Part shown: positions 18,001 to 22,605 of the stretch, piece after piece | How positions within the stretch are numbered: the stretch's first letter is position 1 | How the letters are laid out: every line of letters starts with the position of its first letter | Source of the DNA: a virus | Taxonomy: Duplodnaviria; Heunggongvirae; Uroviricota; Caudoviricetes | Direction: 5' to 3' (one strand) | IMG/VR virus record: IMGVR_UViG_3300045988_025751 | Span: 1-22,605 of that record | Length of the DNA: 22,605 bases | Made by a program: the position numbers

Positions 18001-21000
18001 GCTGTTTATGATGCGTATGGAGTGCAACAATTTTACTACCCAAACATTCTGAAATATAACCCTGACCAATTAGAGTTGAGATTAATTGGACCGGATGGTT
18101 TTAAATACATAGGGAGATGCAAAAATATTAATGATTTACGTCTAATAGAACCAACAATTGAAAGTCAATTAATAAATGTTATTGAGCATAGTGATGGTGT
18201 TGGTATCGGTGGCGGTTTTTTTGAGTATGATTCAACAGATAATACTTCAGAAGATGATGATGGAATGATAATTGTCACGCCTGGTGGAAAGCGTTGGAAA
18301 AGGATATGCAATAAAGTGTATGCTGATTATTACGGAATTGTTCCAGATGGAGTAACGGATTATCATGATAAATTGAACAAAGCACTGCAAGAGGCAAAAA
18401 TGGCAACGGTGAAAGAGCTTATTCTTTCTGAAGGTACTTACGGGATTAACTCTGCACTGAAAGTACCATCTCACGTTAGATTGCGCGGTGCAGGAAAACT
18501 GAAAACAACCATCCTTGCCCTTGCTTCGATGCCGATAACTGAAAACTGCATCCAGAATGAACTATACGAGTACAAGGTATTCCGGACAAACTACGATACG
18601 GATATTAGTATTGAAGACCTGGGTGTTGATGCTAACAACAGGGCGAGAAACCCAACTGAAACATGGATGGATGCAACGCAGGGTACTACCATTCTACTAT
18701 CTACGGTAAGGAATAGCTCTATCAAGCGCGTGTATGTTCAGCGTGGACTACAGCACGGAATTGATATTTGTGCTGGATACTATTTTGATGATGGTAATAT
18801 CGACAACAATGCTGTTGGGGGGAGCTATAACATTCTGGTTGAAGATGTGTCTGCACGAAATACGCAACTTGACGACCTTATAACCACACATAACAGCAGC
18901 GATATAGTTATAAACAGATGCCGAGTATGGAACGATGACCCATCTCAAGTATGGAATGATAACCAACACGGAATTGAAATTGATGAAGGAAGTTATAACG
19001 TCACAGTAATGGATTGTTATGCTGAAAATGTTATCACTGGATTTCAACAAAAAGGTCACTCCACTACAATGCCCGCCAGAAGTGTCAGATTCATTCGTTG
19101 TTATGCAAAAGATTGTGTTTACAGTTTCCAAATTGAACATCGAAACTCACAGACAATACCTTCCGGGCAACATCAACAAGCACGTAATTCAGTGATTGAG
19201 GATTGCACGTCTGATAACGCAAATAACGCTAAATATATGTCGCTTCACGCTCGTGCAGTTTACGTTCTAGGTTTCTTTGGCGTGTACGTAAGAAATCTTC
19301 GTGTTATTGGTGGTGGCGGTAATGTATATATAACTGGCGGTGCTAAATATCTAAACTTTGACGGTATTCAATGGACTGGTGGATATAGTGGGGCATCCAA
19401 TACCACATCAGAAGGTTTAATCCACATAGAAACTAATGCTGCCGTCGATGACTATTGTATAAGAAATTTTATATGTGAGGATACAGTAACCGTACCACTT
19501 ATTCGTGATCTCACTGATACAATTGTGCAGAGAGAAATATCAAATATTCGGGGGTATGGTGGGGATAATTCAATCCCAATGATCGCTATTGCGCCGCTGT
19601 CTGGTGATAATATATCTAATATATCTAATGCGGGTACGTGGGCCTGCGCCATTAGAGATATGGCTAGAGAGGTAGGACAAGGTGATTACACTCAAAGTGT
19701 ATCCTTCCAGAATGGTTTCATTTTTATTTCAGGTAATGGCACCCCAAATGGGGTTATATCAGGCAAACCTGGTGCCGTGTATGTTAACACGGCGAGTGGA
19801 TTTCAGTATCTTTGCACGGCTATAGGCAAAAATAACTGGGTTCCAATTACAACCGGAGTTTGATGGTTAAAAATATCACACGCAAAGCTTTGCATCGGTT
19901 TGCAAGGTTTTGCGCCAATTCCCTATGATACATTCCCATCAAGCCAGTCTGCCCACCACTGCATCATTTCTCTGCGCTTATCGAGATACTGAGCATGGTT
20001 GTAAATCCCGCGCACAGATCCGCCGTTGGCATGTGCCAGTTGCACTTCAATAGCATCAGCAGGCCATTCGTGCTCGTTCATAATCGTGCTGAATTCATGC
20101 CTGAATCCGTGACCGCTTTCCAGACCCTCATAGCCGATTTGTTTGATCACAAGCAGTACCGCGTTCTCGCAGATTGGCTTCTTCTTATCGTTGCGCCCGG
20201 CAAAAACAAACTCTGATACTGGTTTAGTGATGGAGCTTAGCGTAGTGAGAAGTTCAACCACCTGGTCCGACATCGGGACAACATGAATCTTGCGTCCCTT
20301 CATCACACTGGCGTCGATAGTGATAATCCTGTTTTCAAAATCGACGTTCTTCCATTGCATGGAACGAAGCTCTTTCGTTCTTAGGGCTGTGTAGCGTAAA
20401 ACTTTGGTCGCAATGAGCGATACGATACTTCCTGAAAATGTTGCCAGTGCTTTGTTGAATGCCGGGATCTGGTCTGCAGGAAGAAACGGGAAGTTCTTCT
20501 TGCGGTATCCCTTCATGGCGTCAGCAAGGTCAGGTGCCGGGTTATATTTAGCCCTACCAGTAACAATAGCGTAACGGAAAACCTCGCCGCATCTTCTGCG
20601 GGCTTTGTTGGCTCTCTCCATTGCGCCGCGATCTTCAAATCTGCGGATTACTTCCAGCAGTTGCATCGGCTCAATATCCTGAATTTCAAGGCCGCCGATG
20701 ATGGGTAAAATGTCGTCATCAAACATTTTGGCAAGTTCAGTTGCATAGCCTACTGACCAGACTTGCTTCTTGTGCTCGTACCACTCCTTGTAAATCGCAC
20801 TAAATGAATTGTTGTTAGACGAAGCCTTTTTCGCCTTTACCGGATCGATGCCAACCGAGATGTCTTTCCTCGCAGTCCATGCTTTATCCCTTGCCTCTTG
20901 CAAAGTCATAAGCGGATATTTTCCGACGGTCAGGATTTTCTCCTTACCGTCAATCTTGTAGCGAAGCTGCCATACCTTTTTCCCGGATACAGGGACATAA

Positions 21001-22605
21001 AGGTACAGGCCATTACCATCGAGTAGGCGGTATGGTTTTTCTTTCGGCTTTGCTGCTTCAATCTGCTTAACGGTGAGCATGGGTAAAAATCCGGTGGGTA
21101 AAATTATTTTATCCACTTTTTACCCGTCATGGAGTGCGGCTGTCAACGATCTTACGCGAACCATGACGAACTGTGAATCTACGGAAGGCTTGATATTCAG
21201 GGGATTTTGCGGACTGGTACGGATGGTAGCGAACTGATAAATGGTGTCCCCTGCAGACATCTACTTGACGAGGCAGGGGATTGATTGGAATGGTGTTTTT
21301 TAGATGTGAAAAATATTTTACCCGCTATTTTACCCATTGGCGCGGCTTAAGAGCTTATTTTTGAATTCACAATGGTCACGATATAACCATCTTGCGCGTC
21401 CGTGGATAACTTTGGCTTTCGGCAGGTCGCCAGACTTAATCCGGTCGTAGATGAAGGTTTTACCAAAGCCAGTATCAGCCATGATGAATTTCAAATCAAC
21501 CAGTGAATCAGGCTGTAGTTCGTGTTGCATGAGTGCTATCTCCGAATAGGGAATCGAACCTGCAAATCAGGCAATAAAAAACCGCATTGATGCGGCGATG
21601 GTAGGTCTGGATATCTTGAGAAATGAACTGGCCTCATCGAGTGTGAGGCTGTGGTTAGTCCTTGCGTAACTCGCTAATTCTTCTGTAAGTCTCTGGTGCT
21701 TTGTTTCCGTGTATCTTCATTTCAGACTTCAACAGAGCAACGAGGGAATCCCATTCGTTGAGGATGCCTTTGAATGCCGGAACGCGCTTTGCAACCTTGT
21801 CGAATGAATCTCTGATTTCTGGAATCTGCTCAACAAGTGCAACGCATCGTCGGAAATCTGCTGCGTCATGTGGAGCGCCGAAGTGATGACCATAGATATT
21901 CTTTTTCAGTCCACATGCGATTGAGGCAAGAGTTGCGCTACTGATGCCGACATCGCCAGTCGATTGCCATTTCAAAACCTTCATAGCCAAATCTGACATT
22001 TCTTGTCTCCAATAAAAAACCGCCATCAGGCGGCTTGGTGTTCTTTCAGTTCTTCAATTCGAATATTGGTTACATTGTTTTCATATATGAATAAATAAAT
22101 TAGCTTTTTTCGTTGCCTTCGCGTTCTTTATTAATTTTAACAAACTCGTTTTTACCACGCTCTCCAAATGCGTCTTTAGAGTCGTTGTATCCGCAATCGC
22201 AGCACACATAATCACCAGACCATCCACGCATTGTTTTTTCTTTTGCAATATTTCCAGAACCGCATTTTGGACAAGACATATCACTACCTCCAAAGCATGA
22301 GTGAGATGACAACGTAACATTGATTGGAGATTAACAATAGATTGCTGATGTAAAAGATATGTATAAGCTTCGCTTTCAAAGTGGAGGCTCTGGTAGCGGC
22401 ATCCAGTGTGACGGCTCACATACCCCCTCAACACCGTTCATGTAAAAGAATTGAAATAACCCTTTACCTTTGTGAAACCCTACCATCATCTCTTTTGTGT
22501 CTGAACAATAAACCAAAACATCTTCTTCGTTTGGCATTCGCTCACTACAGCTTATCCAACCATCCGGAGTTACCGGAACTTGCGGAATGGCTGTCTGCTC
22601 TCGAA

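What the first reader, a model, noticed from the sequence alone, without database searches (positions are those of the whole stretch)
19864..21335. P4/AlpA-type integration module with GGGTAAAA repeats and a candidate attP
The integrase has a P4-family (DUF4102-type) arm-binding N-terminus and the adjacent small gene is AlpA-like, so the integration module differs in type from the lambda-like P22 Int/Xis as I remember them. Five copies of the 8-mer GGGTAAAA/TTTTACCC bracket the xis-int intergenic region (three at the int start, two at the xis 3' end), which looks like arm-type Int/Xis binding sites or an autoregulatory operator array. The 59-bp tailspike-int spacer has a perfect 12-bp palindrome plus TTTGC repeats and is where attP is expected by lambda/P22 analogy. 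If the 8-mers are arm sites, attP may actually be upstream of int, as in P4-like elements.
Basis: partly seen in the sequence, partly recalled or inferred. Interest (0 to 1): 0.5.

Follow-up and report, generated by a model that had tools for sequence, protein, structure and literature searches.

The report
Known IntS/TorI argW phage integration module
This is the already well-studied integrase/excisionase module that P22-like coliphages such as Sf6, HK620 and CUS-3 share with the E. coli K-12 prophage KplE1; its attachment site lies between the two genes, the GGGTAAAA repeats are the integrase arm-binding sites, and so it is ordinary.

Summary
The integrase (19923-21080, minus strand) is 381/384 identical to E. 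coli K-12 IntS. The small gene (21330-21530, minus strand) is 66/66 identical to TorI, the KplE1 excisionase (PDB 1Z4H). The DNA between them is collinear with KplE1 attR plus attL.

- **Crossover core:** CTGCAGGGGACACCAT (21241-21256, minus strand) is the 3' end of tRNA-Arg(CCU) argW. Prophage junctions, an uninterrupted empty site in 911 E. coli genomes, and tRNA-Arg about 160 bp upstream of int in 23 of 25 relatives all place the crossover there. attP is therefore upstream of int, not in the tailspike-int spacer.
- **GGGTAAAA repeats:** the five intergenic copies are the IntS arm-type sites, P at the xis stop and P' over the int promoter and start codon. The HK620 GenBank record already annotates them, and Panis et al. 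2010 showed that they mediate int autorepression. In diverged relatives every copy switches together to GGGCATA.
- **Sixth copy:** the copy inside int is a coding coincidence.
- **59-bp spacer:** it is a conserved hairpin at the 3' end of int.

One side observation may be new: a tRNA T-loop-like box (CAGGTTCGATTCCC) conserved just upstream of TorI-family genes.

The parts
19923..21080 (-). Integrase gene, orthologue of E. coli K-12 IntS (385 aa, ATG at 21080-21078)
   Evidence: 381/384 identical to K-12 IntS. Pfam Arm-DNA-bind_3, Phage_int_M and Phage_integrase.
19881..19914 (.). Imperfect inverted repeat in the tailspike-int spacer (includes the 12-bp palindrome and the TTTGC repeats). It is a conserved hairpin at the 3' end of int and a probable transcription terminator. 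It is not attP.
   Evidence: The plus-strand RNA forms a 14-bp hairpin, -22.6 kcal/mol, z -4.3. The minus-strand RNA forms a weaker hairpin followed by UGUGAUAUUUUU. The hairpin is conserved downstream of intS in K-12 KplE1, YZ3-11 and FXCREC035, with a compensatory G-C to A-T change.
21081..21088 (+). IntS arm-type site, P' arm, abutting the int ATG (TTTTACCC-ATG on the int strand)
   Evidence: Conserved in 20+ relatives and covaries with the Int subfamily. Annotated as an attP repeat in HK620.
21096..21103 (+). IntS arm-type site, P' arm
21107..21114 (-). Degenerate IntS arm-type site (GGATAAAA), P' arm
   Evidence: It is a full GGGTAAA(A/T/G) in many relatives.
21118..21125 (-). IntS arm-type site overlapping the -10 box (TAAAAA, 21122-21117) of the int promoter PintS. 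It corresponds to the site that PMC2951348 calls P'1.
   Evidence: Panis 2010 states that P'1 overlaps the -10 box TAaAAa.
21141..21146 (-). PintS -35 box, TTGACA
   Evidence: Invariant in all 28 aligned attL sequences. The promoter was mapped by primer extension in KplE1.
21147..21171 (-). TorI (excisionase) binding block I3-I4-I5: GTTCG 21167-71, GTTCG 21157-61, GATCG 21147-51, at 10-bp phasing and abutting the -35 box
   Evidence: Motifs and layout are as described for KplE1 attL. Conserved in relatives.
21210..21234 (-). TorI binding block I1-I2: GTTCG 21230-34 and GTCCG 21210-14
21241..21256 (-). attP core and crossover segment, CTGCAGGGGACACCAT. This is the last 15 nt of tRNA-Arg(CCU) argW plus 1 nt.
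   Evidence: The alignment with K-12 attL and attR switches partner exactly here. The same 16-mer is given in PMC2951348. Chromosomal matches stop at 21256 next to tRNA-Arg. It corresponds to the HK620 'attP core' feature.
21316..21323 (-). IntS arm-type site, P arm
   Evidence: Conserved and covarying in five diverged phage attP sites.
21328..21335 (-). IntS arm-type site, P arm, covering the last Gly codon and the TAA stop of torI
21330..21530 (-). Excisionase (recombination directionality factor) gene, identical in protein sequence to TorI / HkaC / Sf6 gp18
   Evidence: 66/66 identical to K-12 TorI. Matches PDB 1Z4H at 6.6e-43.
21549..21562 (-). T-loop-like box CAGGTTCGATTCCC in the torI leader, 18 nt upstream of the ATG. 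With 3 more nt it makes a 16-nt exact match to the argW T arm. Function unknown; side observation.
21581..21596 (-). Terminator-like hairpin plus T run that closes the upstream gene, just 5' of the torI leader
   Evidence: An analogous hairpin plus T run precedes the box in several diverged lineages.

Best explanation
The region is the IntS/TorI site-specific recombination module that targets the tRNA gene argW, in its excised (attP) form. attP spans roughly 21078-21340, between torI and int.

**Integration (inferred from the KplE1 model).** The catalytic and core-binding domains of IntS exchange strands within the 16-bp core (21241-21256), which is identical to the 3' end of argW. The N-terminal arm-binding domain holds the GGGTAAAA sites: two direct copies on the P arm at the torI stop, and two direct plus two inverted copies on the P' arm over the int promoter and start codon. 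After integration, attL is argW-core-TorI sites-P' sites-int, and attR is torI-P sites-core-host DNA. The tRNA gene is restored.

**Regulation and excision (shown for KplE1 only).** Because the P' sites overlap PintS, IntS represses its own gene. TorI bound to the five GTTCG-type sites between the core and the -35 box bends attL for excision and also represses PintS.

**What is shown and what is inferred.** Shown here are the sequence identity, the junction positions and the comparative conservation and covariation. The binding, repression and in vitro excision rest on published KplE1/HK620 experiments. Their transfer to this phage is an inference from 99-100% protein identity and near-identical site DNA.
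For: - **Proteins:** IntS 381/384 and TorI 66/66 identical; TorI matches PDB 1Z4H.
- **Collinearity:** window 21040-21620 aligns end to end with K-12 attR (through the core) and then attL (from the core), and with HK620.
- **Existing annotation:** HK620 GenBank marks the attP core and four 'attP' repeat regions. With an offset of +19873 these coincide with the core and with all the GGGTAAAA copies. Sf6 and CUS-3 carry the same annotation.
- **Junctions:** of 5426 complete E. coli genomes, 2609 hold the module. Among the listed hits, 13 break at window 21256 directly beside tRNA-Arg.
- **Empty site:** the attB reconstructed from K-12 attL-left and attR-right exists uninterrupted at 100% identity, and 911 genomes cover at least 80% of it in one piece.
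- **Relatives:** 23 of 25 Int relatives (58-99% identity, many Enterobacterales genera) have tRNA-Arg(CCT) ending about 160 bp upstream of int on the same strand.
- **Footprint:** the -35 box is invariant, the RDF (recombination directionality factor) motifs are phased, and the arm repeats keep fixed positions. In the 58-72% identity subgroup and in phages Emek and phiEt88, every P and P' copy changes together from GGGTAAA to GGGCATA.
- **Literature (PMC2951348):** the 16-nt core; five TorI sites (GTTCG/GATCG/GTCCG) in two blocks; P' sites sharing TAAA, with P'1 over the -10 box; about 5-fold repression by IntS and by TorI; in vitro excision with IntS, TorI and IHF.
Against: - No lysogen of this exact phage was found. 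Its tailspike C-terminal part has no near match in the phage or E. coli collections, so integration at argW is inferred from the module, not observed for this genome.
- The primary footprinting paper (Panis 2007, J Biol Chem) was not available. The P-arm assignment therefore rests on the HK620 annotation and on my comparative data, not on a footprint I could read.
- The exact positions of strand cleavage within the 16-bp core are not known to me.
Confidence: 0.95

Rival explanations
1. attP lies in the 59-bp tailspike-int spacer (19864-19922), downstream of int as in lambda and P22, and the palindrome is the crossover core.
For: Positional analogy with lambda and P22. The spacer holds a perfect 12-bp palindrome and phased TTTGC repeats, plus a near-copy of the arm motif, GGTTAAAA, at 19865.
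Against: - No tRNA or host-like segment is there, and aragorn finds nothing.
- Chromosomal matches run straight through int and its 3' flank (from window 19878) and break only at 21256.
- The same hairpin sequence follows intS in K-12 KplE1, YZ3-11 and FXCREC035, where the neighbouring genes differ.
- It folds as a hairpin with a compensatory change.
Confidence: 0.01
2. The GGGTAAAA repeats are only a transcriptional operator for int, bound by IntS or another repressor, and play no architectural role in recombination.
For: Three or four copies overlap PintS and the int start, and published data show autorepression.
Against: - Two copies sit about 240 bp away at the torI stop, on the other side of the core, where they cannot act on PintS once the phage is integrated.
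- They covary with the P' copies.
- The layout, with repeats on both arms flanking a core and an Int that has an arm-binding domain, is the canonical heterobivalent integrase design.
- In KplE1, single P' mutations did not relieve repression, so operator function is not their only constraint.
Confidence: 0.03
3. The small gene is an AlpA-type transcriptional activator of int (as AlpA is for CP4-57 intA) rather than an excisionase.
For: Weak Pfam AlpA and HTH_17 similarity. Distant homologues and related records are labelled AlpA/COG3311.
Against: - The protein is 100% identical to TorI.
- TorI is required for KplE1 and HK620 excision in vivo and in vitro, and it represses rather than activates PintS.
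Confidence: 0.01

Closest known systems
KplE1 (CPS-53) prophage recombination module of E. coli K-12: IntS, TorI, attL and attR at argW (Panis et al. 2007, 2010, 2012)
   Same: IntS 99% and TorI 100% identical. Same 16-bp core. Same five TorI sites, PintS -35 and -10 boxes and arm repeats, base for base apart from a few substitutions.
   Different: Here the module is in the unrecombined attP form, in an apparently complete P22-like phage. KplE1 is a 10-kb defective prophage that is split into attL and attR.
attP/int/hkaC region of coliphage HK620, and the equivalent regions of Shigella phage Sf6 and E. coli K1 phage CUS-3 (Lederbergvirus)
   Same: 96-97% DNA identity from the int 3' end to upstream of xis. 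Same gene order (tailspike side, int, attP, xis). The core and repeats are annotated in GenBank.
   Different: - The int 3' flank differs. Sf6 has oac and CUS-3 has neuO between the tailspike and int, whereas here the tailspike abuts int with only the 59-bp hairpin spacer.
- The tailspike receptor-binding part is unrelated.
Satellite phage P4 integrase and attP (own knowledge: Pierson and Kahn 1987)
   Same: Same integrase subfamily by domain architecture (Arm-DNA-bind_3/DUF4102). attP lies immediately upstream of int with Int sites over the int promoter. The target is the 3' end of a tRNA gene.
   Different: Different tRNA (leuX against argW). No sequence comparison with P4 was run here. The P4 directionality factor Vis is not adjacent in the same way (own knowledge, not tested).
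Lambda / P22 Int-Xis-attP
   Same: Heterobivalent tyrosine integrase, arm-type and core-type sites, a small winged-helix directionality factor that binds phased direct repeats, and IHF dependence (for KplE1).
   Different: attP lies between xis and int rather than downstream of int. int has its own autorepressed promoter inside attP/attL, and there is no sib-type retroregulation. int and xis are transcriptionally uncoupled (PMC2951348).

Membership tests
IntS/TorI argW recombination module (KplE1, HK620, Sf6, CUS-3) | Integrase orthologous to IntS | tested here: met
   381/384 identical
IntS/TorI argW recombination module (KplE1, HK620, Sf6, CUS-3) | Directionality factor orthologous to TorI | tested here: met
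   66/66 identical; PDB 1Z4H at E 6.6e-43
IntS/TorI argW recombination module (KplE1, HK620, Sf6, CUS-3) | 16-bp core CTGCAGGGGACACCAT identical to the argW 3' end, located between the RDF gene and int | tested here: met
   Single exact copy at 21241-21256 on the minus strand. Partner switch in the attL/attR alignment. The 16-mer is quoted in PMC2951348.
IntS/TorI argW recombination module (KplE1, HK620, Sf6, CUS-3) | int promoter overlapping the P' arm, with five TorI sites (GTTCG/GATCG/GTCCG) in blocks of 2 and 3 between the core and the -35 box | tested here: met
   coordinates against the description
IntS/TorI argW recombination module (KplE1, HK620, Sf6, CUS-3) | Integrated form found at argW with this core duplicated at both ends | tested here: met
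   Shown for the module in K-12, CUS-3, YZ3-11 and 23 other species, plus the empty attB. Not shown for this exact phage genome, because no lysogen was found.
IntS/TorI argW recombination module (KplE1, HK620, Sf6, CUS-3) | IntS and TorI physically bind the mapped sites; recombination needs IntS, with TorI and IHF added for excision | not testable with these tools
   Published for KplE1 and HK620 substrates (PMC2951348). Transferred here by sequence identity.
P4-type (DUF4102) tyrosine integrases | N-terminal Arm-DNA-bind_3 domain, central SAM-like domain and C-terminal catalytic domain | tested here: met
   PF13356 at 2.2e-25, PF22022 at 5.8e-28 and PF00589 at 1.6e-39, all above their cut-offs. 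The conserved-domain label cd00801 INT_P4_C is noted in the records of relatives.
P4-type (DUF4102) tyrosine integrases | Catalytic R..HxxR..Y residues | not tested
   ALRTKE, HGFRHE and a C-terminal Tyr are visible in the translation, but no residue-by-residue alignment to a solved integrase was made.
AlpA family (Pfam PF05930) | Score above the Pfam gathering threshold | tested here: not met
   12.7 bits against 21 (E 0.12); HTH_17 16.9 bits against 27. There are only remote links: 43% identity over 47 aa to Pseudomonas phage proteins labelled AlpA, and COG3311 notes in related records.
Lambda/P22-type attP placement | attP immediately downstream of int (int-distal to xis) | tested here: not met
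   The crossover maps 160 bp upstream of the int start. The downstream spacer is a conserved hairpin.

The most novel reading that the evidence does not exclude
The T-loop-like box CAGGTTCGATTCCC (21549-21562, minus strand) may be an undescribed cis-regulatory element that keeps the excisionase off in lysogens.

**What it is.** The box sits 15-18 nt upstream of the start codon of TorI-family excisionase genes. At 13 of its 14 positions it is identical to the T arm of the very tRNA the phage integrates into.

**How it might act.** Either it works in the mRNA as an anti-Shine-Dalgarno partner (AUU(U/C)CC pairing with GGAGAU). Or, more exotically, it works in the DNA as a lone attB-like core-type site that lets IntS bridge to the P-arm sites 200 bp away and loop out torI.

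**Evidence.**
- Of 35 viral contigs carrying the exact box followed by GGAG, 25 have a TorI homologue (34-100% identical) starting right after it, in at least five unrelated upstream contexts.
- In a sample not selected for the box, 39 of 58 distinct leaders of phiEt88-like RDF genes keep it with at most 3 mismatches at a fixed distance.
- There is no Rfam family for it, and I found no paper on it.
Probability: 0.3. Interest if true: 0.4.

Novelty: already known. Interest (0 to 1): 0.12.

Why it matters
For this window it settles the annotation. The phage is a P22-like (Lederbergvirus) mosaic that carries the IntS/TorI module. It should lysogenise at argW, and its int is autorepressed through the arm sites. 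None of this is new: the module is a textbook-level alternative to the lambda paradigm (an integrase promoter inside attL, with int and xis uncoupled).

The work adds three small things:
- Comparative proof that all the arm repeats covary with the integrase subfamily.
- A correction: the sixth 'attP repeat' annotated inside int in HK620 is a coding coincidence.
- A pointer to a conserved, apparently uncharacterised leader element upstream of the excisionase gene.

Tried and rejected
- **tRNA scan of the window:** no genes found. The argW match is only a 16-bp core, so this was expected.
- **NCBIfam:** no passing model for either protein.
- **Panis 2007 (J Biol Chem):** the primary footprinting paper is not held. 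The 2013 PNAS paper on Rho control of torI is also not held.
- **Sixth GGGTAAAA copy inside int as a functional arm site:** rejected. It encodes Ile-Leu-Pro, and its synonymous positions vary in relatives, including K-12.
- **GGTTAAAA near-copy at 19865:** treated as chance.
- **ORFs spanning attP as real genes** (hkaB-like 21197-21337, and 21120-21260): they are open in window, Chronis and Midgardsormr38 but not in Ehr49, Emek or phiEt88 in the scan for ATG-started ORFs of at least 26 residues, so probably not genes.
- **Int search in IMG/VR for diverse attP forms:** it returned only copies at least 99% identical.
- **Pseudomonas AlpA-labelled homologues as a test of a different tRNA target:** the module architecture differs, with int on the opposite strand, so it was not informative.
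- **The box as a TorI autoregulatory site:** plausible for GTTCG-type modules, but phiEt88 keeps the box while its presumed RDF sites are GTAACC-like.
- **The box as obligatory for argW targeting:** rejected. Of 10 box-less modules with enough downstream sequence, 8 still carry the argW core.
- **Rfam search of 19800-22100:** only sub-threshold noise.
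Full report
**Observation**

The sequence features are real and sit at the stated coordinates. GGGTAAAA/TTTTACCC occurs six times in the window against 0.69 expected, and no shuffle out of 100 reaches six. Five copies lie within 255 bp around the xis-int intergenic region: 21081, 21096 and 21118 at the int start, and 21316 and 21328 at the xis end. The tailspike (17731-19863, Pfam Head_binding) and int (19923-21080, minus strand) are 59 bp apart. 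The palindrome GCAAAGCTTTGC is at 19882-19893, and TTTGC recurs every 10 bp.

**What the genes are**

- The integrase has Pfam Arm-DNA-bind_3 (the former DUF4102), Phage_int_M and Phage_integrase domains. It is 381/384 identical to E. coli K-12 IntS.
- The 66-aa protein is 66/66 identical to K-12 TorI, whose structure is PDB 1Z4H. It does not reach the Pfam AlpA threshold (12.7 bits against 21) but matches PHROG 66, 'excisionase and transcriptional regulator'.
- At the DNA level the block from the int 3' end to upstream of xis is 96-97% identical to Sf6, HK620, IME10, HK633 and others. The int-to-core part is equally close in CUS-3 and in several Stx phages.
- The window as a whole is a P22-like (Lederbergvirus) mosaic, closest to phages Dewey, Louie and IME10.

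**Where attP is**

- The HK620 GenBank record annotates an 'attP core' at 1368-1383 and four 'attP' repeat regions. With the offset of +19873 these fall exactly on window 21241-21256 and on all the GGGTAAAA copies. Sf6 annotates the same core, and the CUS-3 prophage record begins with the 'attL core' 176 bp upstream of int.
- I aligned the window (int-sense strand) with the two ends of KplE1 in K-12. The window follows attR (torI side) up to CTGCAGGGGACACCAT and then follows attL (intS side) from that same 16-mer onward. On the far side of the 16-mer, attL continues into argW and attR into host DNA.
- The 16-mer is the one stated for KplE1 by Panis et al. 2010 (PMC2951348).
- Of 5426 complete E. 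coli genomes, 2609 carry the module. In the listed hits, matches that do not include xis end at window 21256, directly beside an annotated tRNA-Arg.
- I reconstructed an empty attB by joining the K-12 sequence left of attL to the sequence right of attR. It is present uninterrupted at 100% identity, and 911 genomes cover at least 80% of it in one piece.
- Among species-representative genomes, 23 of 25 integrase relatives at 58-99% identity (Escherichia, Citrobacter, Pantoea, Edwardsiella, Erwinia, Serratia, Xenorhabdus, Tatumella and others) have tRNA-Arg(CCT) ending about 160 bp upstream of int on the same strand.

It is not in the tailspike-int spacer.

**What the 8-mers are**

In the int-sense orientation the layout runs as follows:
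1. torI stop, with two direct GGGTAAAA copies 12 bp apart. The first contains the last Gly codon and the TAA stop.
2. About 60 bp of spacer, then the core.
3. TorI sites I1 and I2 (GTTCG, GTCCG).
4. TorI sites I3, I4 and I5 (GTTCG, GTTCG, GATCG, at 10-bp phasing).
5. The -35 box TTGACA, then an 18-nt spacer.
6. The -10 box TAAAAA, inside a GGGTAAAAA copy.
7. GGATAAAA, then two inverted TTTTACCC copies, the last one abutting the int ATG.

This matches the published description of KplE1 attL: five TorI sites in blocks of two and three, P' arm-type sites sharing TAAA, and P'1 overlapping the -10 box. Panis et al. also mapped the promoter by primer extension. They measured about 5-fold repression of PintS by IntS and by TorI, and obtained in vitro excision with IntS, TorI and IHF.

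My comparative data add independent support.
- In an alignment of 28 attL regions, the -35 box is invariant and the repeats keep their positions.
- In the more distant subgroup (L020, L028-L031, L035), every repeat changes together from GGGTAAA to GGGCATA.
- In five diverged phage attP regions (Chronis, Midgardsormr38, vB_EhrS_49, Emek, phiEt88), the two P-arm copies show the same switch in step with the P' copies.

Concerted change of all copies with the integrase subfamily is what is expected of sites read by the integrase N-terminal domain.

The sixth copy inside int encodes Ile-Leu-Pro. Its synonymous positions vary in relatives, even in K-12 (TTACCT), so it is a coding coincidence despite being annotated in HK620.

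**The tailspike-int spacer**

From 19878 onward the spacer is homologous to the sequence that follows intS in other argW prophages, including defective KplE1, where the neighbouring genes are unrelated. The palindrome and TTTGC repeats are the arms of an imperfect inverted repeat (19881-19914).
- The plus-strand RNA folds into a 14-bp hairpin (-22.6 kcal/mol, z -4.3).
- The int-sense RNA folds into a weaker hairpin followed by a U-rich tract.
- Between the window and K-12 there is a compensatory G-C to A-T change in the stem.

I read it as the int 3' terminator or stability hairpin. HK620 annotates a terminator at the equivalent place. This is an inference and no transcript data were available.

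**Mechanism**

The mechanism is the KplE1 model. The parts shown here by sequence are the identities, the junctions and the covariation. The protein-DNA binding, the autorepression and the TorI dependence of excision are published for KplE1 and HK620. They are transferred to this phage by near-identity. Integration of this particular phage at argW is predicted, not observed. Its tailspike C-terminal part has no near relative in the phage or E. coli collections, so I could not find its lysogen.

**Comparison and novelty**

The module is a member of the IntS/TorI argW family on every testable criterion. Its integrase belongs to the P4/DUF4102 subfamily by domain architecture. It is not lambda/P22-like in attP placement or in regulation. 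The 'AlpA-like' label holds only at a remote superfamily level. Everything the finding proposes as worth checking is already in GenBank annotation (Clark et al. 2001; Casjens et al. 2004) and in the Ansaldi laboratory papers. Verdict: already known, low interest.

**Side observation: a T-loop-like box upstream of torI**

Upstream of torI, after a terminator-like hairpin (21581-21596), the leader reads TTGCAGGTTCGATTCCC-TATTC-GGAG-ATAGCACTC-ATG. The first 16 nt are identical to the argW T arm, that is, the part of the tRNA lying immediately 5' of the core. My own rough estimate is that a chance 16-mer match between the tRNA and this window is of the order of 6e-4.

- The same box is present in K-12 and HK620. 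It occurs twice in tandem in Erwinia phage Midgardsormr38, and once in phiEt88, whose RDF is only 39-43% identical.
- It is absent where xis abuts an upstream gene (Chronis, vB_EhrS_49).
- In IMG/VR, 25 of 35 contigs with the exact box followed by GGAG have a TorI homologue (34-100% identical) starting 15-18 nt after it, in at least five unrelated upstream contexts.
- In a sample selected only by RDF protein similarity, 39 of 58 distinct leaders keep the box with at most 3 mismatches at a fixed position. The conserved core is GTTCGATT(C/T)CC followed by AAACCGGAGAT(A/G)AAACC and the ATG. The other 19 have unrelated leaders.
- The box can pair with the Shine-Dalgarno region (AUU(U/C)CC with GGAGAU, and GUU with AAC), but the predicted hairpins are weak and not uniform.
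- It contains the TorI motif GTTCG, yet phiEt88 keeps it although its presumed RDF sites differ.
- Box-less modules still target argW.
- HK620 annotates this stretch as a cII-dependent promoter, and Sf6 annotates a 'boundary sequence' over it. Part of its spread may therefore reflect mosaic exchange.
- There is no Rfam family for it, and I found no paper on it.

I could not decide between four readings: an RNA anti-SD element, a DNA site for IntS or TorI, a promoter element, and a relic. The box is flagged for follow-up.

Noticed in passing
window 21549-21565 (minus strand); also L150 1750-1800, L153 1760-1800, L155-L188, L190-L269: A T-loop-like box CAGGTTCGATTCCC lies 15-18 nt upstream of the ATG of TorI-family excisionase genes. 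In the window it extends to a 16-nt exact match to the T arm of the target tRNA argW. It is conserved across RDFs that are 34-100% identical and in unrelated upstream contexts. No function is known, there is no Rfam family for it, and no paper was found.
   Followed up: partly
window 19881-19914: The palindrome and TTTGC repeats of the tailspike-int spacer form a hairpin that is conserved downstream of intS in K-12 KplE1 and other argW prophages, with one compensatory G-C to A-T change. It is probably the int terminator or a 3' stability element.
   Followed up: partly
window 20703-20710 (HK620 829-839): The GGGTAAAA copy inside int, annotated as an 'attP' repeat in HK620 GenBank, encodes Ile-Leu-Pro. 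It is not conserved at synonymous positions in relatives, including K-12, so it is probably not a binding site.
   Followed up: yes
L020, L028-L031, L035 (attL); L152 Emek and L153 phiEt88 (attP): In a diverged integrase subgroup, all the arm repeats read GGGCATA instead of GGGTAAA, at the same positions on both arms. The RDF motifs change too (for example GTAACC, GTTAC). This natural specificity swap could be used to map the arm-recognition residues.
   Followed up: partly
window 18100-19863: The C-terminal (receptor-binding) two-thirds of the tailspike gene has no megablast match in 50,697 phage records. In 5,426 complete E. coli genomes only the first 207 nt of the query match. The host O-antigen specificity is therefore probably undescribed.
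   Followed up: partly
window 21197-21337 and 21120-21260 (minus strand): Two 46-codon ORFs run across or start at the attP core, so integration would disrupt them. One is the hkaB / Sf6 gp17 homologue, whose first codons are the arm repeats (MGKIAGKI). Both are open in Chronis and Midgardsormr38 but not in vB_EhrS_49, Emek or phiEt88, so they are probably not genes.
   Followed up: partly
H31-H47 (for example NZ_CM135826.1 2301956-2303727 = L006; NZ_CP081786.1, 39,448 bp): In 17 complete E. coli assemblies, int-attP-torI is contiguous (unrecombined). Some are on chromosomes next to unrelated tail genes, and some are on phage-sized replicons or smaller records. These could be tandem lysogens, prophages integrated by another route, or excised or episomal phage DNA.
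   Followed up: no
L025 about 1310-1420 (Xenorhabdus hominickii): A tandem array of the 9-mer CCCTTAAAT fills the space between the tRNA-Arg end and the RDF sites of attL in this relative.
   Followed up: no
window 19865-19872: A one-mismatch copy of the arm motif, ATGGTTAAAAAT (compare ATGGGTAAAAAT at the int start), overlaps the tailspike stop codon. It was treated as chance.
   Followed up: no
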